A stretch of 64,000 nucleotides of DNA, taken from an uncultured bacterium (GTDB taxonomy: Bacteria > Patescibacteriota > Minisyncoccia > Moranbacterales > UBA2206). Numbering within the stretch: the stretch's first letter is position 1; each line of letters begins with the position of its first letter. Below are positions 13,069 through 64,000 of this stretch, in pieces. Location of the stretch: NCBI GenBank assembly GCA_903831805.1, contig CAIKZD010000009.1, positions 8,786 to 72,785 on the forward strand, given 5' to 3'. The position numbers were made by a program, and so were the translations under genes. The notes under the pieces were generated by a model. It saw nothing but the letters and a program-made list of their open reading frames with translations, was not told the origin of the DNA and did no database searches.

Positions 13069-15096
13069 ATGGTGGTAGAATATCATTATGATTATTTAAG
13101 CACAAAAAAAATGATACAAAAAACATTGCAAAAACTAGGTGCTGTTTTGAAAAAAGATGAACGGCTTTTGGCGGATGATGGTAAAATATTAAAAAACCAA
13201 GCTGTAGAATTAGTGAATAAGCTTGATGAGGGCTTAATTGATCTTTTAGCTAGCGACAAAGATCTTAAAAAAATATTTTTCAAGAAAATCGGCGAGATGA
13301 TGGTTTTTGACAAAGATTTGTTCATTGAATTTGTGAGCAATAAGGAATTTTTGCCGGATTCATATACGGCGTTCAAAAACAAAATCGGCTTTGAAATTGG
13401 TGGTCAATATTTGAAATCTCAAAAAGAGGTAGTTTTGGTGTGGCCGTATAAAGATTGCATCTTAGAAGGTGGTCAAACCAAAGAAGATGCCAAGCGCAAG
13501 GAAATTTTTTGGAATGAAACGCTGGCACCGGACGATGTCAATCGTTTGCTGGAGGCGAAAGTGCTCACGAATTGGAAAAGGTATGACAAAGACAATCTCA
13601 AAAACGGACATGTCGTCACGGAAATCAAAGACACCGACAATTTAATCATCAAAGGCAATAATCTTCTAGCGTTGCATTCACTCAAGAAACGTTTTGCCGG
13701 CAAAGTGAAACTGATTTACATTGATCCGCCCTACAACACCGGAAATGATAGCTTTGGCTATAATGATTCTTTCAATCATTCTACGTGGCTGACGTTTATG
13801 AAAAATCGGTTGGAAGTTGCGAGGGAGCTATTGTCAAATGATGGTAGTATATTTATTTCAATTAATCATTTAGAGCTGGGGTATCTGATGGTTTTGATGG
13901 ACGATATTTTTGGAATTGAAAATAAATTGCCAATAATAACATTGAAAGCTGGCACAACAGCAAGTTATAGGGCGATAAATGAGTGTCCTGTGAATGTCTC
14001 GGAGTATGTTTTATCGTATAGAAAATCTTCAAATTATGTTGCTAATAGAATTTATCGAGAAACTAAATATAGCGAAGATTATTCTTATTTTATAAAAAAT
14101 AAAAATGATAATTCCGAAAAATGGATTATCGAAAAAATTGACGATATTATTTATAAAAATAATAAGTGTGATAATTGGAAAGACTTTAAGGATAAATTTG
14201 GACCAACATGGAAAAATGACAGGCTTAAATTAAAAGAAAACTTTGCTTTAGAGAATTCTGATAAAGTAGTTAGTCTAAATACATTGCAAAAACCGTCGAA
14301 AGATGTGCAAATAATTATTGAGAAATCGAAAAACAATAGAAATAAAGTATTTTCTTATAAAAGAAGCGATAAGAATGATATCCATTGTTTTAATGGCAGA
14401 ACATTGGCTTTTTTATCATCTAAGTTTAAAAATATTAATGGAAAAAATGTTCTTGCGGAAATAGTAACAAATTTATGGGATGATATTTCTTTTCTTAGTC
14501 TTGGCTCAGAAGGTGGTGTTGATTTGATTAATGGTAAAAAGCCAGAAGCGTTGATTAAAAGAATTGTTGACATATCAACTTTAAAAAATGATGATATAGT
14601 ATTAGATTTTTTTGCTGGCGCAGGAACAACTGGCGCAGTGGCGCATAAAATGGGACGTAAATACATCCTGGTTGAGCAATTGGATTACATTCACGATCTT
14701 CCAGAATCTAGAATGAAAAAAGTCATCGAAGGCGAACAGGGTGGAATTTCCAAGGCAGTCAATTGGAAAGGTGGCGGGAGTTTTGTGTACACCGAGTTGA
14801 TGCCAGTCAATGAAAAGTTTGTGCGAGAAGTGGAAAATGTGAAAAACAAAAAAGAAGTTTCCGATCTTTGGAAAAGGATTGAGAGGAATGGATTTTTGAG
14901 TTATCGCGTGGACGAACAAAAATTCCACAAAAATGCCAAGGACTTTTCTGATTTGTCACTCGAAGAGCAAAAGAAATTCACTTTGGAATCACTGAACAAA
15001 AATATGCTGTACGTTCCGATTAATGAAATTGAGGACAGTAGTTATAAAGTTAGCAAAGATGATATTAAGTTGAATGAAGAGTTTTATGGGGAATAA
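13069..15096 (+). CDS. mod: Type III restriction-modification Mod subunit (N6-adenine DNA methyltransferase, beta class)
   Basis: IYIDPPYNTG (motif IV) precedes an AT-rich variable target-recognition region, then DFFAGAGTTG (motif I). Followed by Res helicase. Confidence 0.8.
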   Translation: MVVEYHYDYLSTKKMIQKTLQKLGAVLKKDERLLADDGKILKNQAVELVNKLDEGLIDLLASDKDLKKIFFKKIGEMMVFDKDLFIEFVSNKEFLPDSYTAFKNKIGFEIGGQYLKSQKEVVLVWPYKDCILEGGQTKEDAKRKEIFWNETLAPDDVNRLLEAKVLTNWKRYDKDNLKNGHVVTEIKDTDNLIIKGNNLLALHSLKKRFAGKVKLIYIDPPYNTGNDSFGYNDSFNHSTWLTFMKNRLEVARELLSNDGSIFISINHLELGYLMVLMDDIFGIENKLPIITLKAGTTASYRAINECPVNVSEYVLSYRKSSNYVANRIYRETKYSEDYSYFIKNKNDNSEKWIIEKIDDIIYKNNKCDNWKDFKDKFGPTWKNDRLKLKENFALENSDKVVSLNTLQKPSKDVQIIIEKSKNNRNKVFSYKRSDKNDIHCFNGRTLAFLSSKFKNINGKNVLAEIVTNLWDDISFLSLGSEGGVDLINGKKPEALIKRIVDISTLKNDDIVLDFFAGAGTTGAVAHKMGRKYILVEQLDYIHDLPESRMKKVIEGEQGGISKAVNWKGGGSFVYTELMPVNEKFVREVENVKNKKEVSDLWKRIERNGFLSYRVDEQKFHKNAKDFSDLSLEEQKKFTLESLNKNMLYVPINEIEDSSYKVSKDDIKLNEEFYGE

Positions 15097-15268
15097 AAAA
15101 ATTATAAATGTTTCCTCTGGAAATCAATCTGGCGGAGTTACGTCAGGAGAAATTAATAAGGAAACAAATATAAATCTTAATATTTGGAAAGAAAGATCAA
15201 AAGGTGGGTTTTTAGTTCTTGCTCTTGAGTTAATTATTTATATTATTAAAATTTATTTAAACAAATGA
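15074..15268 (+). CDS. small hypothetical protein (paralog of next ORF; shared N(V/I)xS(G/D)NQSGG(V/I)T(S/A)G motif)
   Basis: 64-aa ORF overlapping the mod 3' end. The real start may be the internal Met at 15086. Confidence 0.3.
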   Translation: MKSFMGNKKIINVSSGNQSGGVTSGEINKETNINLNIWKERSKGGFLVLALELIIYIIKIYLNK

Positions 15269-15615
15269 GTGAAGAAAAAATTTTTAATGTAACAAGCGAT
15301 AACCAAAGTGGTGGAATTACAGCAGGTATTGTAAATATTTTTCACAAATTGCGAATAGAGCTGACCGATGAAAATAAAAAACAATTAATAGAAAATTTAA
15401 ATGATAAGTCGGCTACTATTCATGTCTCATTGCAATCTGGAGGTGGAAGTGAAGTAGCTGGCCTGTCTCAGGAGATAATGAGTTTTCTGCTCGAGAGTGG
15501 ATATAAAAATATTTTAGGTGTACATACTATTATGGGATTTGCTCCATTTAAAGGTATGACTATAGAGAGAAAAACAGAGAGTGAGCTTGTTATTTTTATT
15601 GGCTCTTTAATTTAA
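15265..15615 (+). CDS. hypothetical protein
   Basis: 116-aa ORF. Its ATGA start overlaps the previous stop. AT-rich. Confidence 0.4.
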   Translation: MSEEKIFNVTSDNQSGGITAGIVNIFHKLRIELTDENKKQLIENLNDKSATIHVSLQSGGGSEVAGLSQEIMSFLLESGYKNILGVHTIMGFAPFKGMTIERKTESELVIFIGSLI

Positions 15616-15636
15616 AGAATAAAAGATTAAAAATAT

Positions 15637-16116
15637 ATGGCACAAAGATTTATTTATCCCAAAGAATTTATAAAAGACACTCTTATTGAAAAAATAGGTA
15701 AAATTATTCATGTTGATGCTTATCTATCTTTTTTATTAATATGTTCAGGAATTGAATTTTTAGGAAAGTGTATAGACTCAACTGAAAAATGGGAAGAGGG
15801 AAATAGCGGCGAACAATTTAAAACAGCAATTATAAAACTATTTCCAGATGGCTATCATAATTTAGTAAATGATTTATATAAAGACTTGCGATGTGGATTA
15901 GTTCACAGAATTATACCTGGATCAATATCATTAACTCAAAATGGAAATGATAATGATGGCGAAATACCATATAGATTGCATCCATACTTGAAAGATAATA
16001 AAAAAATTCTTGTTATCGAATATTTTTACTTTGATTTTGTGGAGGCTTGTAAAAAAGTTTTAGCTATGAATTTTAATGAAAATAAAATGACCAAGCCAAT
16101 GTTATCAGTTGGTTAA
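15637..16116 (+). CDS. hypothetical protein, possible HEPN-like (Rx4H: RCGLVHR)
   Basis: 159-aa ORF between mod and res. Confidence 0.4.
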   Translation: MAQRFIYPKEFIKDTLIEKIGKIIHVDAYLSFLLICSGIEFLGKCIDSTEKWEEGNSGEQFKTAIIKLFPDGYHNLVNDLYKDLRCGLVHRIIPGSISLTQNGNDNDGEIPYRLHPYLKDNKKILVIEYFYFDFVEACKKVLAMNFNENKMTKPMLSVG

Positions 16117-16121
16117 TATTT

Positions 16122-18788
16122 ATGCTTCACGAAGAATTTAACAGTACTAGGGATGTTGTTGAGAAGGACTATTTTGAGAAAAGAGTCCCTTCTTTTATCA
16201 TGGAAAATTTGACGGAACGGGCGGAGTTGCGTGAATATCAAAAAGAAGCCATTGGAAGATTTGCGTACTATCTCACAAAATATCCCAAAAAGAAAAAGCC
16301 GACGCATCTGCTTTTCAATATGGCCACTGGCTCCGGCAAAACTTTGATTATGGCGGCTGATATTTTGTATCTTTATGAAAAAGGCTATCGTAATTTCATT
16401 TTCTTCGTCAATAGTTCCAATATCATTGAAAAAACCAAAGAAAACTTTCTGAATCCATATTCCAATAAATATCTTTTTGCGAAAAATTTGAAATTCGGCG
16501 ACAAGGCTGTGAAGATCGCGCCGGTGGAAAATTTTGAAGCAGGGAATCTCGAAGATATAAACATTCTTTTTACCACGATTCAGGGATTGCATGTGCGACT
16601 CGGTAATCCCAAAGAAAATGCCATCACCTATGAAGATTTTGCGGAAAAGAAAATCGTGCTTTTGTCCGACGAGGCGCATCACATCAACACACTCACCAAA
16701 CTCAAAAAAAACGGACAGAAATCTCTGCTTGACGACGGAATTGGAAAGATCGAAGGTTTGAAAAAAGAAGAAGAAACGGAATTGCGTTCTTGGGAGGGAA
16801 CGGTGATGCGTATTTTGAATGCTAATAAGAATAATGTCTTGTTAGAATTTACTGCCACAATTGATTTGAAAAATCCGGGCATTGCCGAAAAATATGAGGA
16901 CAAGATAATTTTTGAATATAATTTGAAGCAATATCGCTTGGACGGATTTTCCAAAGAAATTGAAATTTTGGAAGCGGATCTATCTCGGATGAACCGCGCG
17001 CTGGTGGCGATCATTTTGTCACAGTATCGGATGAAGGTGGCGCAGAAACATAGAATTTTTTTGAAGCCCGTGGTGATGTTCAAGGCTAATCGCGTTAGTG
17101 TGCCCAAGAAAGCCAACGCAGAAGCGGTTGTCTCCAGTGAATTCAAAGAAGAATTCTTAGAGAAAGTGAAGAATTTGAAAGGCGACGACCTGAAACAATT
17201 GGGAAAGATTAAAAACGAAACTTTGCGGCGTGCTTTTGAGTTTTTCAAAGATAATGGAATCTCCTTGGGATCTTTAGCAAAAGAACTTCAAAATGATTTT
17301 ACAGAAGAAAAATGCATTTCCATTGATTCAAAAGATCAAAGCGAAAAAAATCAAATACTGGTTAATTCTTTGGAAGATCCTAGCAACGAAGTGCGCGCGG
17401 TTTTCGCGGTAGATGCTCTCAATGAAGGTTGGGATGTCTTAAATCTGTTTGATATCGTGCGGTTGTATAATTCAAGAGAACACAGACCCGGCAGTTATAC
17501 GATGGCGGAAGCGCAACTTATTGGCCGAGGCGCGCGATATTACCCATTTTCTATTAACGGGAATGGTGACAGATATTGCAGAAAATTTGATGAGGATGTG
17601 GAAAGCGAACTGCGCATTATTGAACAGCTCTATTATCACAGTGCTCAATATTCCGGTTATATTTCCGATATCACCAATGCTCTCATTCAAACAGGTATAA
17701 TGCCGGAGAAAAAAGTTGAGAGAGAAGTGAAAGTCAAAGACAGCTTCAAAAACACCGCCATGTGGAAAAATGGAATAATTTTTCTCAATGCACAAATTCC
17801 GGATGATCGTAGTGACGCAAAAAATTTGAAATCGGTAAATATCCCGCTCGAATACGAATATAATTTTGTAACAGGGCTTATCGAAGAACACGAAGTGCTT
17901 AGTGATAGACTGCAAATGAAAACGCAACCGGGGAATGTAGACATGAGAAAAATAAAACTCTTGAGTTTGAGTCGCAGTGTGGTTTGTGAAGCTATAAACC
18001 GTATTGATTTTTATAATTTCAAAAATATCAATCAATATTTTCCGCCGGCTGACTCAGCGGAGAAGTTTATTGATGAATATTTAAAGGATGTATCTGTGAA
18101 AGTTTCTGGTCCTAGAGATTTTCTAGATAATTTACAACAAGATGAAAAACTTGATATTGCGGTGAATGTTTTGGAACAAATATCTGTGAGCGCGCAAAAT
18201 ACAAAAAAGGAAAACATGGGATCTGTTGAATTTGGAGCGCACAAAATTTCAGATATTTTCAAAGACAAAATTTTGCAGATTGCCAGCGACAGCCCAAGAG
18301 CCAAGGAGATGGAGGAGATTGATTTGTCCGCGCGGAGCTGGTTCGCGCAAAATGAAATTTGGGGAACTGGAGAAGAAGAGTCTTTTTTGAAATTTTTTGA
18401 TGAGACAGCAGGAGACCTCAAGAAAAAATATGATCAAGTGGCGGTGATGCGAAATGAAAAACATTTCAAAATTTTCAACTTTGACGATGGCCAGCCATTT
18501 GAGCCGGACTTTGTTCTGCTTCTCAAGGAAAAGAAAACAAAAAAAGAATTACTCTGGCAAGTTTTCATTGAGCCAAAGGGCGATCAATTTTTGGATGAAG
18601 ATGGCGGATTTCAAAAAGGCAAGGAAGGCTGGAAAGAGAAATTTCTGTTGCAGATTGCCGATAAGTATAAATTGGATTTGGATAAATTCAAAATTGAAAA
18701 CAAAGATTTTAAATTGATTGGATTGCCTTTCTATAATGAAGGATTGAAAGAGAGATTCGAGGAAAGTTTTCATGAAATTGTTAAATAG
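16122..18788 (+). CDS. res: Type III restriction enzyme Res subunit (SF2 helicase-nuclease)
   Basis: 888 aa. Walker A ATGSGKT, DEAH box LLSDEAHH. Adjacent to Mod. Confidence 0.8.
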   Translation: MLHEEFNSTRDVVEKDYFEKRVPSFIMENLTERAELREYQKEAIGRFAYYLTKYPKKKKPTHLLFNMATGSGKTLIMAADILYLYEKGYRNFIFFVNSSNIIEKTKENFLNPYSNKYLFAKNLKFGDKAVKIAPVENFEAGNLEDINILFTTIQGLHVRLGNPKENAITYEDFAEKKIVLLSDEAHHINTLTKLKKNGQKSLLDDGIGKIEGLKKEEETELRSWEGTVMRILNANKNNVLLEFTATIDLKNPGIAEKYEDKIIFEYNLKQYRLDGFSKEIEILEADLSRMNRALVAIILSQYRMKVAQKHRIFLKPVVMFKANRVSVPKKANAEAVVSSEFKEEFLEKVKNLKGDDLKQLGKIKNETLRRAFEFFKDNGISLGSLAKELQNDFTEEKCISIDSKDQSEKNQILVNSLEDPSNEVRAVFAVDALNEGWDVLNLFDIVRLYNSREHRPGSYTMAEAQLIGRGARYYPFSINGNGDRYCRKFDEDVESELRIIEQLYYHSAQYSGYISDITNALIQTGIMPEKKVEREVKVKDSFKNTAMWKNGIIFLNAQIPDDRSDAKNLKSVNIPLEYEYNFVTGLIEEHEVLSDRLQMKTQPGNVDMRKIKLLSLSRSVVCEAINRIDFYNFKNINQYFPPADSAEKFIDEYLKDVSVKVSGPRDFLDNLQQDEKLDIAVNVLEQISVSAQNTKKENMGSVEFGAHKISDIFKDKILQIASDSPRAKEMEEIDLSARSWFAQNEIWGTGEEESFLKFFDETAGDLKKKYDQVAVMRNEKHFKIFNFDDGQPFEPDFVLLLKEKKTKKELLWQVFIEPKGDQFLDEDGGFQKGKEGWKEKFLLQIADKYKLDLDKFKIENKDFKLIGLPFYNEGLKERFEESFHEIVK

Positions 18789-21300: not shown

Positions 21301-21379
21301 ACAGACGAAGCAGGAAAAGCGATTGAGCTTTATTGGTCACGACCGATAGAGCTCTTTTTTATTTCCCCAATTTATATGC

Positions 21380-21408
21380 TTGACAAACTTTTCTTCCACT
21401 GCTATACT
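21380..21408 (+). promoter_or_regulatory. sigma70-type promoter TTGACA-17-TATACT
   Basis: Consensus -35 and near-consensus -10, about 40 nt upstream of the TrpR-like gene. Confidence 0.6.
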
Positions 21409-21447
21409 TTATCCAAGTAAAGTGATTTAGTGTAATAAAGTAAGAAT

Positions 21448-21768
21448 ATGGATATGCGGAAGAATCAAAAAACTGAAGATCTGATAGGAGCTTTTTTGGC
21501 GCTGGAGACGGCGCGGGAGGCGCGACTGTTTTTGCGGGACCTTTTGACGGAGAAGGAACTTTTGGAATTGGGCAATCGCTGGCAAGCAGTACGGATGCTT
21601 AGTGGCAAAATAGCGTACACGGAAATTATCGAAAAAACCGGACTGAGCTCGACCACCATAGCCAGAATTTCCAAATGGTTGCAAGGCGGCATGGGCGGCT
21701 ACCGTTTGATGCTTGAGAAGCTTTCTAATAATCATCACGCAACTCTTTCTCATCCCAGGAAGCGTTGA
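21448..21768 (+). CDS. TrpR-like / YerC-YecD family DNA-binding protein
   Basis: 106 aa. LALETAREARLFLRDLLTEKELLELGNRWQAV...STTIARISKWL. Confidence 0.65.
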   Translation: MDMRKNQKTEDLIGAFLALETAREARLFLRDLLTEKELLELGNRWQAVRMLSGKIAYTEIIEKTGLSSTTIARISKWLQGGMGGYRLMLEKLSNNHHATLSHPRKR

Positions 21769-21860
21769 ATTTTTGTGTAACACATTTTTTTTCAAACTCT
21801 TTCTCGGCTGAGGAAGAGTTTTTTTGTTCGGTTCATTAACAATCAAAAAAATGAGCGAGG

Positions 21861-23120
21861 ATGGTTATGAAAAAGCAAGAAATTAAGTTTAGCCAGGCAT
21901 TGCATCGGGACGGTACCGATGCGCCGGAACTAATCGGCGTAATTCTGCAAAACTATGAGACCAGGGCGGTGCTGTATGGCGCGTCCATGAGTCGCGAAAC
22001 ATTGGCAGAAACGCTGGCAAGCGGTTGGGTGGTGTTGTATAGCCAGAGCCGCAAATGTCGCTGGCTGAAAGGTGAGACTAGCGGGGATAGGTTGCGGGTC
22101 AGGAAAATTTTCTTGAATTGCAATAGCGACCAACTGCTCATCCAAGTCAGTCCGATGGGAAAAGGAGTGTGTCACGAGAAAGATGAAAAAGGCGTGGCCA
22201 AGCCAACCTGTTTTCATAAATTATTATGGGAAAGAGGAACAAATCAATCATCCAACCAGGAGAAGGCTATGAAAAACATGATATTAGGCATTCCATCAGG
22301 ATCATTATTGGAAGCAACTATCACTCTTTTAAGAACAATCGGGATTGAAGTGGTGGTCAACGGCCGCAATTTTATCTGCGAGGTGCGGGGGAGTGCGATG
22401 TTTTCCCAGGCGCTCATCATGCGACCCAATGATCTGCCTCAGGCGGTGAAAGCGGGCGTGGTGGACGTGGCCATCACCGGGCTGGATATGGTTTTCGAGG
22501 CGGGATTGGAAAATGAACTTTGCAAGATAGTGGAATTGCAATTTTCCAAAAAATCGCGGATGGCCGCACGAATAGTAGTATTTGGCAGAGAGGATGAGTC
22601 GGATGAAATTGTGGACGCTGAAGATGTTGTAGTTTGCGGTGAGTATATAATTCTCGCGAGGACCATGTTCAAAAAGGCTGGGATACAATTCTCCACCGGC
22701 TCGACAGAAATCAAAGTGGCCAACAAGGCATTTGGTTTTCGCTATGGGGTGGGGGTGGTTGAGAGCGGCCAAAGTCTCAAGGACAATGGGCTTAAGATCA
22801 TAAAAACTATCCTGACTTCTCCTGTGGTGCTCATCGCTCGGGAAGAGTCGCCAGAACTGCAAATTTTCGGGCAGATGCTCCATGGGGTGCTGGAAGGTGA
22901 GCGTTATCGACTGGTGAAATTCAATGCTAATTTTGACGATCAAGCCAGGCTACTGCAGATTTTGCCTGCTATGGAATCGCCCACTATCAGCCAGCTGGCT
23001 GACGGAGCAATGGCTTTCGAAACAGCCGTTTTAACGGGCGCGCTGGCGGACACGATAATCGCCATTGGGATGGCGGGCGGGCGAAAGATCCTGATCCAGG
23101 ATATACGCATCGCGATATAA
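21861..23120 (+). CDS. hisIG: fused phosphoribosyl-AMP cyclohydrolase (HisI) and ATP phosphoribosyltransferase, long form (HisG)
   Basis: N-terminus has HisI motifs (WLKGETSGD, NCNSDQLLIQV, CHEKD..KPTCFH). From MILGIPSGSLLE onward it is HisG-like, about 290 aa. One continuous ORF. Confidence 0.7.
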   Translation: MVMKKQEIKFSQALHRDGTDAPELIGVILQNYETRAVLYGASMSRETLAETLASGWVVLYSQSRKCRWLKGETSGDRLRVRKIFLNCNSDQLLIQVSPMGKGVCHEKDEKGVAKPTCFHKLLWERGTNQSSNQEKAMKNMILGIPSGSLLEATITLLRTIGIEVVVNGRNFICEVRGSAMFSQALIMRPNDLPQAVKAGVVDVAITGLDMVFEAGLENELCKIVELQFSKKSRMAARIVVFGREDESDEIVDAEDVVVCGEYIILARTMFKKAGIQFSTGSTEIKVANKAFGFRYGVGVVESGQSLKDNGLKIIKTILTSPVVLIAREESPELQIFGQMLHGVLEGERYRLVKFNANFDDQARLLQILPAMESPTISQLADGAMAFETAVLTGALADTIIAIGMAGGRKILIQDIRIAI

Positions 23121-23126
23121 AAAGAA

Positions 23127-23165
23127 GGGCGGAATGACAGTGTTCATTCCGCCCTGTTTTATTTT
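23127..23165 (+). terminator. rho-independent terminator
   Basis: gggcggaatga/tcattccgccc stem then tgttttattttt. Confidence 0.7.
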
Positions 23166-28055: not shown

Positions 28056-28128
28056 GCCACCTTAGCTCAGTTGGCAGAGCGACGCACTCGTAACGCGTAG
28101 GTCGTCGGTTCGATTCCGACAGGTGGCT
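28056..28128 (+). tRNA. tRNA-Thr (anticodon CGT)
   Basis: Cloverleaf by eye: acceptor gccacct/aggtggc, D arm gctc-agttggc-gagc, anticodon loop cuCGUaa, T arm gtcgg-ttcgatt-ccgac. CCA not encoded. Confidence 0.7.
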
Positions 28129-38842: not shown

Positions 38843-39727
38843 ATGGAGAATAAAAAAAATGAAGTTCAGCCCAAGTCGCGGGTGATGACGTTGACGATTA
38901 AGGCGGTGGTCTTGAACAGGGCCAATGAGGTGCTGGTTCTGCGGCGTTCGCAGGCTAATAAATATGGCATCGGGAAATATGATCTGCCGGGTGGGCATAT
39001 CGAAGAGAATGAGGGCTTACGCAGTTCTATCCTGCGGGAAATCAAAGAAGAAACCGGATTGGATGCGACCATGGGAGAAATCATTGATGTGGTGGAATTT
39101 CCGGAAGACTCTGCGCAGTTCAAGGAAGAAAAAAGAGGGCTGCGGTGTATCTGCTACGTCGATTCTGACGAGGTGGAACTGAGTCCGGAACATGATGAAT
39201 TCAAATGGGTACCTTTGGACATGGCGGCTGATATGTTCTCCGCAGAGGATGGTTTTGAGAAAGAAAAAAGAGAAACGGTTTTGAAAGCGCAAAAATATCT
39301 GGAGATGCAAGAAGCGACTGACAGATGGAAACGGGCGGCAGCGGACTTTGAAAATTATAAAAAAAGGCAACTGGAAGAACGGAAAGACATGATTGCGTTT
39401 TCTAATCTGAATTTGATGGCCGAAATCATCCCTGTCTTGGACAATTTCCACGCTTCGACGGATCACATCCCAAAAGAGCAAAAAGAAAATGCCTGGGTCA
39501 TCGGTATTATGCATATCCAGTCACAACTGGAAAAGGTGCTGGAAGATAATGGAGTGACGGAAATCAAAGTGGCGGTAGGAGAGGATTTTAACCCGGAAAT
39601 TATGGAAGCGCTGGGCAACGGAGGCGAGGAAAAAGGCGAATGTAAAAATATTGTCAGTAAGATTGTGCAGAAAGGATATAAAATGGGTGGCAGGATTGTG
39701 AGGGCGGCGAGAGTGATTGTGGAATAG
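38843..39727 (+). CDS. grpE: Nudix hydrolase domain fused to nucleotide-exchange factor GrpE
   Basis: Perfect Nudix box GGHIEENEGLRSSILREIKEETGL at the N-terminus. C-terminal half is GrpE-like (DFENYKKRQLEERKD..., GYKMGGRIVRAARVIV). Located between hrcA and dnaK. Confidence 0.7.
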   Translation: MENKKNEVQPKSRVMTLTIKAVVLNRANEVLVLRRSQANKYGIGKYDLPGGHIEENEGLRSSILREIKEETGLDATMGEIIDVVEFPEDSAQFKEEKRGLRCICYVDSDEVELSPEHDEFKWVPLDMAADMFSAEDGFEKEKRETVLKAQKYLEMQEATDRWKRAAADFENYKKRQLEERKDMIAFSNLNLMAEIIPVLDNFHASTDHIPKEQKENAWVIGIMHIQSQLEKVLEDNGVTEIKVAVGEDFNPEIMEALGNGGEEKGECKNIVSKIVQKGYKMGGRIVRAARVIVE

Positions 39728-39807: not shown

Positions 39808-41733
39808 ATGGCAAAAATATTAGGTATCGATTTGGGAACAACTAACTCAGCCATGGCTGTGGTGGAAGGCGGCAGTCCGACTATTTTGGAAAATAAGGAA
39901 GGAGTGCGCACGACGCCTTCGATTGTAGCGATTTCAAAATCCGGCGAACGTTTGGTGGGGCTTTTGGCCAAGCGCCAAGCGGTCACCAATCCGAGTAACA
40001 CTTTGTATTCCATTAAGCGTTTGATCGGCCGCGCGTTTTCGGACGAAGAAGTGCAGCGCGATATGAAACTGATGCCGTATAAGATCGAGCAAGCTGGCGG
40101 CAGTGTGAAGATCAAGATGGGGGATAAGGATTATACTCCGCAAGAAATTTCGGCCATGATTTTGGGCAAGCTCAAGGCGGACGCGGAAGAGAAATTGGGT
40201 GAAAAAATCACTGAAGCGGTCATCACCGTGCCGGCCTATTTTGATGATGCACAAAGAAAAGCCACTAAGGAAGCGGGCGAAATTGCGGGCCTCAATGTGC
40301 GCCGCATCATCAATGAACCGACCGCGGCGGCCTTGGCTTATGGTTTCAATAAGAAAAAAGACGAAAAAATTGCGGTCTACGACTTGGGCGGCGGTACTTT
40401 CGACATTTCCATTTTGGAAGTGGGCGACGACACCGTGGAAGTGAAATCGACCAACGGCGACACGCATTTGGGCGGCGACGATTTTGATCAAGTCATCATC
40501 AGTTGGATAATTTCAGAATTCAAAAAACAAGAAGGCATCGATTTGGGCAATGATCCATTGGCTCTGCAACGCATCAAAGAAGCGGCGGAGAAAGGCAAGA
40601 TTGAACTGTCGACGGCCGCCGAAACGGAAATCAATCAGCCGTTCATCACAACTGATGCTAATGGTCCGAAACACTTGGTGATGAAAATGACGCGCGCCAA
40701 ATTGGAAGAATTGGTGGGGGAACTGGTTGCGAAAACTTTGGAGCCGACCAAGAAAGCTTTGGCGGATGCAAAATTGTCCGTAACTGATATCAACGAAGTG
40801 GTGATGGTGGGCGGTATGACCCGCATGCCACTGGTCGTGAAAACGGTGGAAGAATTCTTCGGCAAGAAAGTTAACCTGACGGTGAACCCGGATGAAGTGG
40901 TGGCGCTCGGGGCGGCAATTCAAGGGGGCGTGCTACAAGGTGATGTGAAAGATGTTTTGCTGCTTGATGTTACTCCACTGACACTCGGCATTGAAACGAT
41001 GGGCGGCGTGCGCACTCCGCTCATTGAAAGGAATACGACCGTTCCAACTTCCAAATCGCAAGTCTTTTCCACGGCGGCCGACAATCAGCCTTCGGTGGAG
41101 ATTCATGTTTTGCAAGGCGAGCGCGAAATGGCGGCGGATAACAAAACTTTAGGCCGCTTTATCCTGGACGGCATCCCGCCATCTCCGCGCGGCATTCCGC
41201 AAGTGGAAGTCAGTTTTGACATTGACGCGAACGGTATTCTTAGTGTGAAGGCCAAAGACAAAGCTACGAACAAAGAACAATCCATCCGTATTGAAGCTTC
41301 CAGTGGACTGTCTAAAGAAGAAGTGGAAAAAATGAAAAAAGATGCGGAAGTGCACGCTGAAGAAGATAAGAAGAAAAAAGAAAAAGTGGAAATAAAAAAT
41401 ATGGCGGACACTTTGGTGTTCACCACCGAAAAAGCCTTGCGTGACGCGGGAGACAAAATCACCGCTGAAGAAAAGAAACCAGTGGAAGAAGCGATTGAGA
41501 ACTTGAAGAAAGTTAAGGAGGGCGAGGACGCGGAAGCTACTAAGAAAGCTACCGAAGAACTTTCCCTGGCGGCGCAAAAGATCGGGGAGAAATTATATAA
41601 AGCGGCAACTGATGCACAAGCGGCACAAACTCCGCCGACCGGCGACCCCGCCTCCGCTGAAGCTACGGCAGGCGAAGCAAAAACTGAACCGGAAGTGAAG
41701 GACGCAGAGACGAAAGAGGGAGAGGCGAAATAA
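39808..41733 (+). CDS. dnaK: molecular chaperone DnaK (Hsp70)
   Basis: [18 protein letters not shown], 641 aa. Confidence 0.95.
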
Positions 41734-41740
41734 AAAAAGC

Positions 41741-42510
41741 AAAAAATAGAGCGGACTAGCGGACTGTTCGTCGTAACCGACGGACCGTTCGCTTGGCTTA
41801 TCGTAACCGCGAACGGTCCGCTTATCGGAGTACCTCAAGCGAACAGTCCGCGGAAGTTAGTGAATATGAGTGTTGCAAAATATAAAATAAAAGATTCTTA
41901 TCCAGGTATGGTTTGCCATGTTTATAATAGGGGAGTGAATAAGGAAAAAATATTTAGAGATGAAAATGATTATGTTTTTTATTTGAAAAAAGTCAGGGAA
42001 TATAAGGAAAAATATGAGATAGATGTAATTTGCTATAGCTTTTTGGATAATCATTACCATTACATCCTAGAACAACTAGGAGAGGAGCCAATAACAAATT
42101 TTATGCGCTCGGTTCATACGAGCTATGGACAATATTTCAATAAAAAATATAATAGAGTAGGTCCGCTTTTTCAAGGGAGATTCAAACAGGCAGTACTGAA
42201 TGACAATAATTTTATTTATCTATCCGCTTATGTGAACGCCAATGCTCAAATTCATGGAATTATTGATAAGGCTGAAGAGCATAGGTGGTGCAGTTACCCT
42301 GATTATCTGGGATTGAGAAATGGGACCTTGTGCAATAAAGCAAGAATACTAGATCAGTTTAAGGATATATTGGAGTATAGAGGATTTGTTGAAGAAAATG
42401 TGAAGGAGTTTAAAATTAAAAAAGAAGCAGATAAATTCATACTAGAGGATTGAGTGAATATAACTTAGCGAACGGTCCGCTGATTACAGCGAACAGTCCG
42501 CTAAATTTAG
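41741..42510 (+). mobile_element. IS200/REPtron-like unit: HUH Y1 transposase flanked by inverted REP-like palindrome clusters (GCGAACNGTCCGC / GCGGACNGTTCGC)
   Basis: Left cluster 41746-41853 (4 units, nested inverted) and right cluster 42465-42504 (2 units) in opposite orientation. About 770 bp. Confidence 0.65.
41866..42453 (+). CDS. tnpA: IS200/IS605-family TnpA / REP-associated tyrosine transposase (RAYT)-like
   Basis: HUH motif DNHYHYIL, about 195 aa, flanked by REP-like palindromes. Confidence 0.7.
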   Translation: MSVAKYKIKDSYPGMVCHVYNRGVNKEKIFRDENDYVFYLKKVREYKEKYEIDVICYSFLDNHYHYILEQLGEEPITNFMRSVHTSYGQYFNKKYNRVGPLFQGRFKQAVLNDNNFIYLSAYVNANAQIHGIIDKAEEHRWCSYPDYLGLRNGTLCNKARILDQFKDILEYRGFVEENVKEFKIKKEADKFILED

Positions 42511-42520
42511 TAGAACAATT

Positions 42521-43648
42521 ATGGCGGAAAATTATTACGATTTATTAGGCGTTTCAAAAGGCGCGTCGGACGATGAGATTAAGAAAGCATATCGCCGAGC
42601 GGCGCATCAGCATCATCCGGACAAATCCGGTGGAGATGAGGCCAAGTTCAAAAAAATCAACGAAGCTTATCAAGTTTTGTCTGACAAATCGAAACGCGCG
42701 CAATATGACCAATTCGGGCAAACCTTTAACGGCGGGCAGGGTAGTTTTGGCGGTGGCTCAACCGGCGGTCAAGGCTTTGGCGGATTCGATTTTTCCGGTT
42801 TTGATTTCGGTCAAGCCGGTGGGAGTGGCAATTTTGACGGGGTGGATTTTGAAGATATTTTTTCCAATATTTTTGGCGGCGGCGGAGGCGGAAGTTCACG
42901 CACACGCGGACGTCAATCAGGTCGCGGCCAAGACATTCAAGTGGACATCGAAATCACTTTTGCCGAAATGGTGAATGGCGCACGGAAAAAAGTGCGGCTG
43001 TATAAAAACGCCAAGTGTGATCATTGCCAAGGCAGTGGCGGCGAACCGGGATCGAGCATTAAGACTTGTCCAACCTGTAAAGGCTCAGGCCAAGTGCATA
43101 AAATTACCCGAAGTTTTCTGGGCTCTTTTTCGCAAGTGAGCGTTTGTCCGGAATGCGAAGGGCAGGGCCAGATGTATGAAAAAAAATGCTCAGTCTGCCG
43201 TGGCGATGGGCGAGTGAAGAAAGAAGAAGAGATTGAAATCAATGTGCCCGCCGGCATAGAAAGTGGCCAGACGATTTCGCTCCGTGGGGCAGGCGAAGCG
43301 GGGAAGAATGGTGCGGCTGCCGGGGACTTGTATATTCTTGTGCGAGTGGCCACACATCGCAAGTTTACACGCAGTGGTCTGGATATTCTGAGCCAAGAAG
43401 AAATCAGTTTTTCCATGGCGGCGCTCGGTGGCGAGATTGGGATTGAAACTATTGAAGGTAATTTGATCTTGAAAATTCCGACTGGCACACAATCGGGTGA
43501 AACGTTCCGGATTAAGAACCAGGGCGTGCCGGATCTGCACGGTCGCGGTCGCGGACATCATTTGGTGAAAATTGTGGTGCGGATTCCGAAGCACATCAGT
43601 CGCGAACAAAAAAGGCTGATTGATGAACTCAAAAATTTGGGGGAATAA
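42521..43648 (+). CDS. dnaJ: molecular chaperone DnaJ
   Basis: J domain YYDLLGV...HPD. Gly-rich linker. Four CxxCxGxG repeats. Confidence 0.9.
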   Translation: MAENYYDLLGVSKGASDDEIKKAYRRAAHQHHPDKSGGDEAKFKKINEAYQVLSDKSKRAQYDQFGQTFNGGQGSFGGGSTGGQGFGGFDFSGFDFGQAGGSGNFDGVDFEDIFSNIFGGGGGGSSRTRGRQSGRGQDIQVDIEITFAEMVNGARKKVRLYKNAKCDHCQGSGGEPGSSIKTCPTCKGSGQVHKITRSFLGSFSQVSVCPECEGQGQMYEKKCSVCRGDGRVKKEEEIEINVPAGIESGQTISLRGAGEAGKNGAAAGDLYILVRVATHRKFTRSGLDILSQEEISFSMAALGGEIGIETIEGNLILKIPTGTQSGETFRIKNQGVPDLHGRGRGHHLVKIVVRIPKHISREQKRLIDELKNLGE

Positions 43649-56356: not shown

Positions 56357-56962
56357 ATGCCAGTACTCATTAATTTCAAAATCTGTGACAATGCCAAGGA
56401 ATGCAATGGCGTGGCGGTTTGTCCGACGGGGGCTTTGACGTGGGATCAAAAGAAGAAACGTATTAAGGTTGATAATGAGAAGTGCATCAGCTGTGGGCTG
56501 TGCGAAAAGTCTTGCATGGTGGAAGCGATTTTTGTAGCCAAAGATGAGAAAGAATATAAGAAAATCGAAAAAGAAATCAAGTCAGATAGACGGAAGGTAA
56601 CCGATTTGTTCGTGGACAGATATGGCGCGCAACCGGTCGGCTTGGCTTTTTTAATTACAGAAGAAAAGTTTGAGCTGGAAGTTTTGGGTTCGGATAAACT
56701 AGTGGCAGTGGAAATGTTCGAAGACGATTCGATCATGTGTCTTTTGAAATCGATTCCTGTAAAAGAATTGCTGAAAGATTATTCGGTCAAATATCGCAAA
56801 ATGGAAACGGACAAAAAATTGGCCAAGAAATTTGGCATCAAAAAATTTCCGACCTTGGCGTTTTTCCAAAAAGGTAAAATGATTGGCAAGGTGGAAGGAT
56901 ATTATGATAAGAAGAAAAAGGAGGAGTTAGTGAAAAAGATAAAAGCTATTATTAAAAAATAA
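56357..56962 (+). CDS. 4Fe-4S ferredoxin domain fused to thioredoxin-like fold domain
   Basis: N-terminal CxxC-rich ferredoxin motifs (CPTGAL, CISCGLCEKSC). C-terminal ...KKFGIKKFPTLAFFQKGK thioredoxin-fold-like, without CxxC. Confidence 0.5.
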   Translation: MPVLINFKICDNAKECNGVAVCPTGALTWDQKKKRIKVDNEKCISCGLCEKSCMVEAIFVAKDEKEYKKIEKEIKSDRRKVTDLFVDRYGAQPVGLAFLITEEKFELEVLGSDKLVAVEMFEDDSIMCLLKSIPVKELLKDYSVKYRKMETDKKLAKKFGIKKFPTLAFFQKGKMIGKVEGYYDKKKKEELVKKIKAIIKK

Positions 56963-63070: not shown

Positions 63071-63456
63071 GGGACATACGAGTTACATTTAATCTTTAAT
63101 TCCAAAAAAGGCAATTAAATAAACTCTCGAAAATCTTTTAAAACACTGAATGAAACAAAGATACATCTTTGTGTGTAATTAGTATTGCGCGCGAAGATGT
63201 GTTTTTTTGCTTGCCCCGTGCGAGTTTACGGGGTTCGTTCAAAGAGTATAAAAAGCAAGACCTTTAACAATTGCATAGTTTCTCTAAATCTCCACCTTTT
63301 GATTTAGAGAGACGAAATAATCACAATTTTTTGCGATTAGTCCTCGTCTGGTCTCGCTTCGGCGAGATTGGACAAACAAATAGAGTCTATTTCAAAATTA
63401 AGAAAATTTATTTTCTTTTCAACTAATATTTGGTGGAGTTAAATCCACTGAATCAT

Positions 63457-64000
<544 letters not shown>

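What the first reader, a model, noticed from the sequence alone, without database searches (positions are those of the whole stretch)
21448..23120. HisI-HisG fusion with altered metal-site motif, no hisE, next to a TrpR-like regulator
A single ORF joins PRA-cyclohydrolase and long-form ATP-phosphoribosyltransferase, which are steps 3 and 1 of histidine biosynthesis. There is no adjacent hisE or other his genes. The HisI motif reads NCNSD where DCD(G/N)D is usual. CPR-type genomes generally lack amino-acid biosynthesis. This could be a repurposed enzyme or a regulatory or sensor protein under the control of a TrpR-like repressor.
Basis: partly seen in the sequence, partly recalled or inferred. 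Interest (0 to 1): 0.55.

Follow-up and report, generated by a model that had tools for sequence, protein, structure and literature searches.

The report
Histidine-repressed fused hisI-hisG operon
A tiny-genome (CPR, Moranbacteria-like) bacterium has two histidine-pathway enzymes fused into one protein, switched by a histidine-sensing repressor; both enzymes carry unusual active-site changes shared by a whole group of such bacteria, and no other histidine genes are seen nearby.

Summary
The span holds two genes: a 106-aa TrpR-family gene (21448-21768) and one uninterrupted 419-aa ORF (21861-23120) joining HisI to long-form HisG.

The regulator is a HisR/YerC ortholog, not TrpR. A near-consensus HisR operator (TACTTTAtccaagTAAAGTG, 21405-21424) overlaps the -10 box of a strong promoter, and all ten relatives examined share this layout. 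So this is a histidine-repressed hisR-hisIG operon.

The fusion arose by stop-codon loss. Close relatives keep hisI and hisG as adjacent separate genes, and the 12-codon linker still holds the old ribosome-binding site. It is nucleotide-identical in three further assemblies whose DNA could be compared.

"NCNSD" is not decay. The whole CPR clade has N-C-[NDE]-x-[DN], intact Zn ligands, a 6-residue insertion, and Asp to Gly in the HisG PRPP loop. pN/pS is at most about 0.3.

No hisE or other his gene was found in 73 kb here or near relatives. Other CPR lineages carry different his fragments behind hisR.

Whether the rest of the pathway exists elsewhere in this genome is unresolved. HisI-HisG fusions are rare but recurrent. 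I rate it a new variant of known kinds, of moderate interest.

The parts
21325..21354 (+). Terminator-like hairpin plus T-run that closes the upstream gene and insulates the operon
   Evidence: 13-pair stem, then TTTTTTATTT
21380..21408 (+). Sigma-70-type promoter: TTGACA, 17 nt, TATACT (TG-extended)
   Evidence: 11 of 12 matches; the same TTGACA plus 16-17 nt architecture is in all relatives
21405..21424 (.). HisR operator 1, TACTTTATCCAAGTAAAGTG, overlapping the -10 box
   Evidence: One mismatch to the published consensus cacTTTAnnnnnnTAAAgtg (PMC9413887). It is the only such site in the 64 kb; expected by chance 0.02. It is conserved at the same place in L001-L011.
21423..21442 (.). Weaker second HisR-like site, TGATTTAGTGTAATAAAGTA, 18 bp downstream of the first
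   Evidence: a tandem second site is also present in L001, L004 and L008
21448..21768 (+). hisR: a 106-aa TrpR-family YerC/HisR-type repressor
   Evidence: PDB 3g1c (E. eligens HisR) 1.4e-12; 58-75% identical to the hisR of relatives; pN/pS 0.27-0.33
21794..21828 (+). Hairpin (12 pairs) plus T-run between hisR and hisIG. It is terminator-like and is inferred to be leaky, because no promoter fits in the 30 nt before hisIG.
   Evidence: conserved with changed stem bases in L001, L004 and L008; similar hairpins follow hisR in at least 17 of 31 CPR loci and in none of the non-CPR operons; the fold has z = -3.25
21861..23120 (+). hisIG: a single ORF of 419 aa (probable start ATG 21867, 417 aa)
21861..22232 (+). 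HisI (PRA-CH) domain, aa 1-124. It has WLKGETSG (aa 68-75), NCNSD (aa 86-90, nt 22116-22130), Zn ligands C87, C104, H105 and C117, and a clade-specific 6-aa insertion between H105 and C117.
   Evidence: residue roles from PMC8102479
22233..22268 (+). Linker RGTNQSSNQEKA, the former intergenic spacer read in frame. It keeps the SD-like AGGAGAAGG (22258-22266) in front of the former HisG start codon, M137 (22269).
   Evidence: alignment with the unfused L008 and L025
22269..22898 (+). HisG catalytic core (aa 137-346). The PRPP loop is GVGVVESGQSL (aa 296-306, nt 22746-22778), with Gly298 where the family signature has Asp.
22899..23108 (+). HisG_C regulatory (histidine-binding) domain, aa 347-416. 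The FNA and (M)ESPT positions match residues reported to contact histidine.
   Evidence: PMC3896937
23126..23155 (.). Bidirectional terminator-like hairpin that closes the operon
   Evidence: 12 pairs, 7 of them GC, T-runs on both strands

Best explanation
This is a self-contained, histidine-repressed operon, hisR-hisIG, in a Moranbacteria-like CPR bacterium.

Shown: the promoter, two tandem HisR-type operators on the -10 box, a HisR ortholog, a hairpin plus T-run, a fused HisI-HisG gene and a final terminator.

Inferred mechanism:
1. With histidine present, HisR binds the operators and shuts off its own promoter.
2. When histidine falls, transcription starts, and the fraction that reads through the hairpin after hisR yields the fusion protein.
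3. The C-terminal part is a long-form ATP phosphoribosyltransferase (ATP + PRPP to PR-ATP) that remains feedback-inhibited by histidine through its HisG_C domain.
4. The N-terminal part is a Zn-dependent PR-AMP cyclohydrolase that opens the adenine ring.

The two enzymes belong to a divergent CPR subfamily with a modified Mg site and a loop insertion in HisI, and Asp to Gly in the PRPP loop of HisG. In this lineage they were joined when the hisI stop codon was lost.

The pyrophosphatase step (HisE) must come from an unrelated enzyme or be bypassed. Whether the later steps are encoded elsewhere in the genome is unknown.
For: Regulation:
- The operator has one mismatch to the published HisR consensus. 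It is unique in the window, with 0.02 expected by chance.
- It sits on the -10 box of an 11/12 promoter.
- The same architecture is found in all relatives, and L009-L011 match the consensus exactly.
- HisR passes the TIGR02531 cut-off and matches the solved E. eligens HisR.
- Histidine-dependent DNA binding of a HisR has been shown in vitro (PMC9413887).

Enzymes:
- All three Pfam domains are above threshold, and the NCBIfam hisG equivalog is above its cut-off.
- The fold matches histidine-inhibited long HisG with TM 0.82.
- The Zn ligands and the WxKGETSG substrate motif are invariant in the clade.
- The histidine-contact positions are kept.

Selection: pN/pS is 0.23-0.33 with synonymous sites saturated, for all three genes.

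Fusion:
- Relatives L008 and L025 have hisR, hisI and hisG as separate genes with a 19-29-nt spacer. The window reads that spacer in frame.
- In the Falkowbacteria locus L106 the order is hisG then hisI.
- There are at least three independent fusions in the clade.
- Together these point to selection for co-expression of the two enzymes.
Against: - Two of the three Asp residues of the HisI Mg2+ site are Asn here, and the first is Asn in the whole clade. That triad is described as universally conserved, and its Mg2+ as essential (PMC8102479).
- The HisI part scores below NCBIfam's equivalog cut-off (81 against 126).
- The signature Asp of the HisG PRPP loop is Gly.
- No HisE-like sequence is found in the window or in any CPR locus held, and canonical HisI is reported not to accept a substrate with a beta-phosphate (PMC10242683).
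- No hisA/F/H/B/C/D is found in 64 + 9 kb here or within 10 kb either side in seven related contexts.
- Relatives have hisR with hisG alone or hisI alone. The two enzymes are therefore not always kept together next to hisR.
- A terminator-like hairpin lies between hisR and hisIG.
- No activity was measured.
Confidence: 0.6

Rival explanations
1. This is a HisE-independent, possibly stand-alone module. The clade-specific HisI (Asn-substituted Mg site, Lys-containing loop insertion) takes PR-ATP straight from the adjacent or fused HisG. In genomes with no other his genes, the pair would serve something other than making histidine. One possibility is a drain on ATP and PRPP triggered by histidine starvation. 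Another is production of a ring-opened nucleotide that decays to AICAR-type compounds.
For: - hisE is absent everywhere in the CPR sequence held, while the controls are found.
- hisG and hisI recur together in both orders and in at least three independent fusions, never with hisE.
- The changes sit in the metal site proposed to bind a substrate phosphoribosyl group (PMC8102479) and in a loop next to the Zn site.
- No other his gene lies near any clade member.
- Other CPR HisR regulons hold non-biosynthetic genes: GNAT plus deacylase, and SLOG plus a PRTase-like protein.
Against: - No biochemical data exist.
- A generic NUDIX or MazG pyrophosphatase could replace HisE. A NUDIX domain is in the window at 38843-39727, and a MazG gene lies near L010.
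- The insertion is not strongly basic.
- The rest of the genome was not seen.
- Canonical HisI-HisG fusions without HisE exist in other organisms (P0096, P0145).
Confidence: 0.15
2. This is a non-catalytic sensor or pseudoenzyme. The fusion would have lost activity and act as a histidine- or nucleotide-binding regulator.
For: Signature residues are lost in both halves: the HisI Asp triad and the HisG loop Asp. The histidine-binding domain is retained.
Against: - The Zn ligands, the catalytic His and the substrate motifs are invariant across the clade.
- The rest of the PRPP loop and the Glu upstream of it are conserved.
- The HisG core is modelled at pLDDT 95-98 with the standard fold.
- Stand-alone HisI in relatives has no sensor domain.
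- Mutating a neighbouring loop Asp in P. arcticus HisG costs only about 4-fold in kcat, so single acidic losses need not abolish activity.
Confidence: 0.07
3. These genes are decaying remnants of an ancestral his operon in a genome that is shedding biosynthesis, with no current function.
For: There is a patchwork of different his fragments behind hisR in different CPR lineages: G only, I only, D only. The signature residues are altered.
Against: - Full-length intact ORFs are kept across dozens of lineages at 40-86% identity.
- pN/pS is at most 0.23-0.33 in every part.
- The promoter and operator are conserved.
- The altered residues are themselves conserved.
- Fusions recur with the reading frame kept.
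Confidence: 0.06
4. It is really two genes, or an assembly error created the fusion.
For: Close relatives have two genes.
Against: There is no stop in 419 codons. The identical sequence is found in three independent assemblies, and the same 419-aa gene is called in a fourth sample. The linker is in frame and aligns with the spacer of the relatives. An internal start at M137, behind the retained SD, could still give free HisG as well. That would add to the fusion product, not replace it.
Confidence: 0.02

Closest known systems
HisR (YerC) histidine repressor regulon of Firmicutes and other phyla (Ashniev et al. 2022, PMC9413887)
   Same: It is a TrpR-family protein of about 100 aa that passes the YerC/YecD model. 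It has the same 20-bp palindrome (cacTTTAn6TAAAgtg), it is autoregulated, and it sits in front of his genes.
   Different: It occurs in CPR/Patescibacteria, which are not among the phyla listed in that paper. Here the regulated set is only one or two genes, and it varies by lineage. A hairpin plus T-run usually follows hisR in CPR loci, whereas the non-CPR operons examined carry a second operator before hisG instead.
Long-form ATP phosphoribosyltransferase HisG (e.g. M. thermautotrophicus 2vd3, C. jejuni 4yb5, M. tuberculosis 1nh8)
   Same: It has the three-domain fold including the C-terminal histidine-binding domain, with TM 0.82 to 2vd3. The NCBIfam equivalog score is above its cut-off. The conserved Glu and the [ST]-G-x-[ST]-L part of the PRPP loop are kept.
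   Different: It is only 22-25% identical. There is a 2-residue insertion before the loop, and the signature Asp is Gly (G298). It is fused to HisI at its N-terminus.
PR-AMP cyclohydrolase HisI (M. thermautotrophicus 1zps; HisI domains of HisIE 6j2l and of plant HISN2 7bgm)
   Same: It matches the PRA-CH domain, keeps the three Cys and one His of the Zn site, and keeps the S-x-S-R and W-x-K-G-E-T-S-G substrate motifs.
   Different: The Mg2+ triad D-C-D-G-D reads N-C-N-S-D. Six extra residues lie between the C-H pair and the last Cys. It is fused to HisG rather than to HisE. It scores below the NCBIfam equivalog cut-off.
Known his gene fusions (hisIE, hisNB, HIS4 = hisIED, HIS7 = hisHF)
   Same: Two pathway enzymes were joined by loss of a stop codon between neighbouring genes.
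   Different: It joins steps 3 and 1 and skips step 2. I know of no published description of a HisI-HisG fusion (my own knowledge; the literature searches found none), although about a dozen such protein clusters exist in sequence databases.

Membership tests
HisR / YerC-YecD (TrpR family) | Trp_repressor fold, with the YerC/YecD model above its curated cut-off | tested here: met
   Pfam PF01371 scores 59.8 bits (cut-off 27). TIGR02531 scores 56.9 bits (cut-off 42.2), whereas the TrpR equivalog TIGR01321 scores only 24.6 against 67.25. PDB 3g1c and 3frw match at 1e-12 to 1e-13.
HisR / YerC-YecD (TrpR family) | A 20-bp palindromic operator cacTTTAnnnnnnTAAAgtg upstream of regulated genes and often of hisR itself | tested here: met
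   TACTTTATCCAAGTAAAGTG lies at 21405-21424; 0.02 expected by chance. It is conserved in 10 of 10 relatives.
HisR / YerC-YecD (TrpR family) | Linkage to histidine metabolism genes | tested here: met
   It is followed by hisI and/or hisG, hisD or hisS in CPR loci, and by full his operons in Ignavibacteria and Bacteroidota loci.
HisR / YerC-YecD (TrpR family) | Histidine-dependent DNA binding | not testable with these tools
   This has been shown only for R. gnavus HisR in vitro (PMC9413887).
PR-AMP cyclohydrolase (HisI, PF01502) | Domain model above threshold | tested here: met
   Pfam scores 64.4 bits against a cut-off of 27. The NCBIfam equivalog NF000768 scores 81.4 bits, below its cut-off of 126. 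It is therefore a family member but is not called an equivalog.
PR-AMP cyclohydrolase (HisI, PF01502) | Zn site: three Cys plus the catalytic His | tested here: met
   C87, C104 and H105 are invariant and C117 is nearly invariant in alignment A3. Residue roles are from PMC8102479.
PR-AMP cyclohydrolase (HisI, PF01502) | Mg2+ site: the Asp triad D-x-D-x-D (Asp85, 87 and 89 of 1zps), described as universally conserved | tested here: not met
   It reads N86-C-N88-S-D90 here, and the clade pattern is N-C-[NDE]-x-[DN].
PR-AMP cyclohydrolase (HisI, PF01502) | Cyclohydrolase activity on PR-AMP | not testable with these tools
   An enzyme assay is needed.
ATP phosphoribosyltransferase, long form (HisG + HisG_C) | Catalytic and C-terminal regulatory domain models above threshold, with the matching fold | tested here: met
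   PF01634 scores 75.1, PF08029 37.3, TIGR00070 79.0 (cut-off 75.75) and TIGR03455 50.6 (cut-off 40.05). Foldseek gives 2vd3 at E 1e-24 with TM 0.82.
ATP phosphoribosyltransferase, long form (HisG + HisG_C) | PRPP-loop signature E-x(5)-G-...-D-[LIV]-x(2)-[ST]-G-x-T-[LM] (PROSITE pattern, recalled from memory) | tested here: not met
   The Glu and the S-G-x-S-L part are present, but the Asp is Gly298 and two residues are inserted. The same holds in the whole Moranbacteria/Falkowbacteria clade, while canonical sequences from full operons keep the Asp. I could not find what the loss does to the enzyme.
ATP phosphoribosyltransferase, long form (HisG + HisG_C) | Histidine-contact residues of the regulatory domain | tested here: inconclusive
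   The Asn (FNA) and Thr (SPT) positions align with C. glutamicum N215 and T235, and Leu231 is Met here. The alignment is at low identity, and no binding test was possible.
Complete histidine biosynthesis pathway | Presence of hisE, A, F, H, B, C, (N) and D in the genome | tested here: inconclusive
   None is present in the 64-kb window plus 9 kb.

The most novel reading that the evidence does not exclude
A CPR-specific HisI/HisG pair forms a HisE-independent two-enzyme unit. The remodelled HisI (Asn in the 'universally conserved' Mg site, extra loop) would open the ring of PR-ATP handed over by the fused or adjacent HisG. In Moranbacteria-type genomes that lack the rest of the pathway, this histidine-repressed unit would do something other than make histidine. 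It could be a starvation-triggered nucleotide or PRPP valve or signal, or one half of a pathway shared with a host cell.
Probability: 0.13. Interest if true: 0.75.

Novelty: new variant of a known kind. Interest (0 to 1): 0.45.

Why it matters
It extends the HisR histidine repressor to the Candidate Phyla Radiation with its operator unchanged, which gives a handle for reading histidine-related regulons in organisms that cannot be grown.

Behind hisR, CPR genomes keep different small pieces of the histidine pathway (G, I, G+I, D, S) or candidate histidine-releasing enzymes. This raises the question of how these cells obtain histidine, and it makes the question testable.

It also defines a HisI subfamily that breaks a metal-site motif regarded as universal, and a HisG subfamily that lacks its loop Asp, both under purifying selection and never seen with HisE. 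If these enzymes work without HisE or on another substrate, that would be new enzymology for a textbook pathway.

If the remaining his genes turn out to be elsewhere in the genome, the finding reduces to a lineage-specific gene fusion with an unusual but functional active site.

Tried and rejected
1. RNA control (T-box or his-leader attenuator) in the leader or between hisR and hisIG: Rfam finds nothing at threshold. The weak PyrR-site and L10-leader matches (E about 0.5) are attributed to the hairpin.

2. Antiterminator idea: the 5' arm of the hairpin is repeated in the last codons of hisR, and HisR ends with a conserved HH. However, the predicted fold nests both copies and still ends in a stem plus U-run, so a switch is not supported. 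I kept this only as a note.

3. HisE: an HMM built from three HisIE proteins finds the controls but nothing in CPR sequence. The 105-aa gene near L010 is MazG family, not PRA-PH.

4. Role of the lost HisG Asp: P. arcticus D179 maps to the window's E301, not to G298. I found no data for the signature Asp, which is Pa D176 by spacing.

5. Pathway completeness: the last homolog search, with a lone CPR HisD, showed HisD to be widespread in CPR and found a hisD-hisB-hisC cluster. It did not link any of this to Moranbacteria-type genomes.

6. Population variation: the four assemblies whose DNA was compared (the window and L134-L136) are nucleotide-identical, so there is no within-population selection signal. 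I used divergence to relatives instead.

Some MAG labels ('Gammaproteobacteria', 'Bdellovibrionales') next to CPR-like hisR loci may be binning errors.

No conclusion rests on it.
Full report
**What is at the coordinates.** The span 21448-23120 contains two + strand ORFs, not one.
- The first is a 106-aa ORF at 21448-21768.
- The second is a 419-aa ORF at 21861-23120 with no internal stop.
- The ATG at 21861 abuts the GAGG of the ribosome-binding site. The ATG at 21867 is better spaced and matches the 417-aa database protein P0001.
- The long ORF matches Pfam PRA-CH (aa 42-109), HisG (aa 188-333) and HisG_C (aa 347-416), all above the gathering scores.
- It also passes the NCBIfam hisG equivalog (79 against 75.75) and the HisG C-terminal model.
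- The HisI part reaches only 81 bits against the equivalog cut-off of 126.
- PDB sequence matches are long-form HisG 2vd3 and HisI 1zps.
- An AlphaFold model built on 44 relatives has pLDDT 95-98 over the HisG half and 50-85 over the HisI half. Confidence is low in the substrate loop, the clade-specific insertion and the linker.
- Its best structural match is histidine-inhibited 2vd3, with TM 0.82.
- The motif NCNSD (aa 86-90) aligns with DCDGD of 1zps.

**The neighbour is a histidine repressor, and the unit is an operon.**
- The 106-aa protein passes the YerC/YecD model (56.9 against 42.2) but not the TrpR equivalog.
- It matches the solved E. eligens protein 3g1c. Ashniev et al. 2022 treat that protein as HisR.
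- That paper defines HisR as a TrpR-family repressor of histidine genes. Its 20-bp operator is cacTTTAnnnnnnTAAAgtg, it is often autoregulated, and its DNA binding depends on histidine in vitro.
- In the window, a TTGACA-17-TATACT promoter (11 of 12 matches) is overlapped at its -10 box by TACTTTATCCAAGTAAAGTG (21405-21424).
- This is the only site in the 64 kb within one mismatch of the consensus, with 0.02 expected by chance.
- A weaker second site follows 18 bp downstream.
- The same promoter-operator layout precedes the hisR homolog in every related locus fetched. In L009-L011 it matches the consensus exactly.
- Terminator-like hairpins bound the unit at 21325-21354 and 23126-23155.
- A third hairpin with a T-run (21794-21828) lies between hisR and hisIG. 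Only about 30 nt remain before the start codon, too little for a promoter.
- I therefore infer that hisIG is transcribed by read-through from the hisR promoter.
- This hairpin is conserved with altered stem bases in L001, L004 and L008.
- Similar hairpins follow hisR in at least 17 of 31 CPR loci. None was found in the non-CPR operons, which instead carry a second operator immediately before hisG.
- No known RNA family matches the region.

**Relatives and the origin of the fusion.**
- The nearest HisG relatives are 284-aa stand-alone long-form proteins named Candidatus Moranbacteria, 63-67% identical.
- The nearest HisI relatives are stand-alone proteins of 129-136 aa, 67-74% identical.
- In L008 and in Moranbacteria UBA4824 (L025) the order is hisR, hisI, hisG as three genes. 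A stop codon and a 19-29-nt spacer holding a Shine-Dalgarno sequence separate hisI from hisG.
- The window reads the equivalent stretch in frame as the 12-residue linker RGTNQSSNQEKA (22233-22268).
- The linker keeps AGGAGAAGG in front of the former HisG start codon, M137.
- The fusion therefore arose by stop-codon loss. Free HisG may still be made from the internal start, but that is an inference.
- The 419-aa gene is called in four other samples. It is nucleotide-identical in the three whose DNA could be fetched, so it is not an assembly artefact.
- An exhaustive search of 1.8 billion cluster representatives finds about a dozen clusters spanning both domains. Some carry the same CPR-type signatures (P0067, P0068, P0028, P0176). 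Others join fully canonical domains (P0096, P0145, P0121).
- The window's two halves are each much closer to unfused proteins (74% and 65%) than to any other fusion (28-49%). This implies at least three independent fusions within the clade.
- The architecture is rare but recurrent. By itself it does not signal a new function.

**The altered residues are a clade signature.** Alignment A3 covers 13 stand-alone HisI proteins, both fusions found (the window protein and P0028), and canonical HisI and HisIE sequences. It shows the following for the CPR clade.
- The W-x-K-G-E-T-S-G motif, the three Cys and the adjacent His are conserved throughout (most invariant; C117 and the Glu of the motif at 90% or more).
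- The canonical D-C-D-G-D is N-C-[N/D/E]-x-[D/N] in every member of the clade. The first Asp is always Asn, and at least one acidic residue is kept.
- All members have six extra residues between the C-H pair and the last Cys.

The Asp triad binds the Mg2+/Cd2+ site, is described as universally conserved, and its Mg2+ is reported as essential. It may position a phosphoribosyl group of the substrate (PMC8102479).

HisG shows a parallel change.
- The Moranbacteria/Falkowbacteria clade reads G-[VI]-[GC]-[VI]-[VT]-E-[ST]-G where canonical sequences have an Asp. That includes the sequences from the full operons found here.
- Two residues are inserted upstream of the loop.
- The upstream Glu and the rest of the loop are kept.

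I could not find what the lost Asp does. The mutated D179 of P. arcticus HisG (a 4-fold effect) corresponds to the window's E301, not to G298.

Residues reported to contact histidine in long HisG align with conserved positions here.

Nei-Gojobori comparisons with L008, L025 and L001 give pN/pS of 0.23-0.33 for hisR, the HisI part and the HisG part, with synonymous sites saturated. All three are under purifying selection, which argues against decay.

**Are there other his genes?**
- Pfam scans of the window's ORFs find no hisE, A, F, B, C or D in the window.
- Six-frame jackhmmer and HMM searches seeded with HisA/F, IGPD, HisC, HisD and HisE also find none there.
- The 9 kb further left also holds none.
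- The same searches recover all of these genes in the non-CPR loci, so the negatives are meaningful.
- Seven related contexts have none within 10 kb either side.
- Canonical HisI is reported not to accept a substrate that carries a beta-phosphate (PMC10242683). So either an unrelated pyrophosphatase replaces HisE, or this HisI has a changed specificity.
- The rest of the genome could not be examined with the tools available. This is the main open point.

**The wider pattern.** I scanned one genome per species for the promoter-operator pattern.
- In Ignavibacteria and Bacteroidota-type genomes, hisR heads a full his operon.
- In CPR/Patescibacteria lineages, hisR is followed by only one or two genes, and these differ by lineage. 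The lineages include Moranbacteria, Falkowbacteria, Kuenenbacteria, Komeilibacteria, Magasanikbacteria, Roizmanbacteria, Saccharibacteria, Paceibacterota and Peribacteria.
- The genes seen after hisR in CPR loci are:
  - hisI then hisG, or hisG then hisI;
  - hisG alone or hisI alone;
  - hisD alone;
  - hisS;
  - a HisG-IMPase fusion;
  - GNAT with an M20 or AstE/AspA-type deacylase;
  - a SLOG-family protein with an unassigned PRTase-like protein.
- Some of these downstream genes have their own second operator.
- HisD is widespread in CPR.
- One Patescibacteria contig has M20, GNAT, hisD, hisB and hisC in a row. The Peribacteria locus has hisG, D, C and B.
- No hisA/F or hisE was seen in any CPR sequence held.
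- CPR genomes thus keep varied fragments of the pathway under HisR. The window's operon is the hisI+hisG version.

**Conclusion.**
- Best supported (confidence about 0.6): a histidine-repressed, autoregulated hisR-hisIG operon. It encodes a bifunctional enzyme that performs the first and third reactions of histidine synthesis, built from a divergent CPR subfamily and fused by stop-codon loss.
- The regulatory part rests on direct sequence evidence and a published, experimentally supported family.
- The enzymatic part rests on domain, fold and residue conservation, and it is weakened by the lost signature residues and the missing HisE.
- Rivals: a HisE-independent or non-biosynthetic module (0.15), a pseudoenzyme sensor (0.07), decaying remnants (0.06) and an artefact (0.02).
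- Relative to what is known, this is a new variant. It shows HisR in a new superphylum, a rarely seen and (to my knowledge) undescribed HisI-HisG fusion, and a conserved departure from two family signatures.

Noticed in passing
window 38843-39727 (+): One 294-aa ORF combines an N-terminal NUDIX domain with a C-terminal GrpE domain. It sits in the hrcA-grpE-dnaK-dnaJ heat-shock cluster. This looks like an unusual fusion, and the NUDIX part is a conceivable stand-in pyrophosphatase.
   Followed up: no
window 41860-42453 (+): An IS200-like Y1 transposase gene (Pfam Y1_Tnp 1e-6) is inserted between dnaK (39808-41733) and dnaJ (42521-43648).
   Followed up: no
window 13069-18788: A type III restriction-modification pair, Mod (675 aa) and Res (888 aa), lies in a low-GC stretch (0.30-0.38 against about 0.45 elsewhere). 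Precomputed Pfam hits on identical contigs (TypeIII_RM_meth, N6_N4_Mtase, ResIII) confirm the assignment.
   Followed up: partly
window 56357-56962 (+): A 201-aa protein fuses a 4Fe-4S dicluster domain to a thioredoxin domain.
   Followed up: no
window 63456-64000 (+): This is the 5' part of a bacterial 16S rRNA gene (510 bits), cut off by the window end. tRNA-Thr, tRNA-Gln and tRNA-Lys genes lie at 28056, 35554 and 44507.
   Followed up: no
L038, L045, L047, L062 (behind hisR); L131:8208-9914: A GNAT acetyltransferase paired with an M20 peptidase or an AstE/AspA-type deacylase directly follows hisR in several CPR genomes. The M20+GNAT pair also sits immediately upstream of hisD-hisB-hisC in a Patescibacteria contig. 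These are possibly enzymes that process N-acyl-histidine or His-dipeptides, or an acylated variant of the late pathway steps.
   Followed up: partly
L035, L074, L124 (behind hisR): A SLOG cluster-4 (LOG-like) protein follows hisR, followed in turn by a 260-286-aa protein with a PRTase-like VVIVDDV..G motif and no Pfam hit. L035 has a second HisR operator right in front of the SLOG gene.
   Followed up: partly
L095, L130, L132; proteins P0214-P0333: A short (about 393 aa) and highly conserved (about 60% identity) histidinol dehydrogenase is widespread in CPR. It often stands alone, sometimes behind hisR, and one entry is labelled Nanoarchaeota. It could serve to salvage histidinol.
   Followed up: partly
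L056 (Peribacteria), 512-aa ORF after hisS: A short-form HisG is fused to an inositol-monophosphatase-family domain (a HisN-type histidinol-phosphatase candidate). It lies behind hisR and hisS, and hisD, hisC and hisB are in the same 8-kb block.
   Followed up: partly
proteins P0166, P0172, P0183, P0185 (349-390 aa): This is a separate group of HisI-like plus HisG-like fusions in which the HisI Zn ligands are partly lost (GGACDLGY, GGAVEDGY; DNDQD). They may be non-catalytic or act on another substrate. Their organisms are unknown.
   Followed up: no
window 21742-21751 and 21796-21805: ACTCTTTCTC occurs in the last codons of hisR and again as the 5' arm of the downstream hairpin. The minimum-energy fold nests both copies (z = -3.25). 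HisR proteins of the clade end with a conserved HH...RKR tail. No switch mechanism could be supported.
   Followed up: partly
L009:10001-10576, L031, P0052, P0054: HisI-only operons encode longer HisI proteins (183-191 aa) with a conserved C-terminal extension (…YVPYGW…ELF.LRQ.DPRYAP) of unknown function.
   Followed up: no
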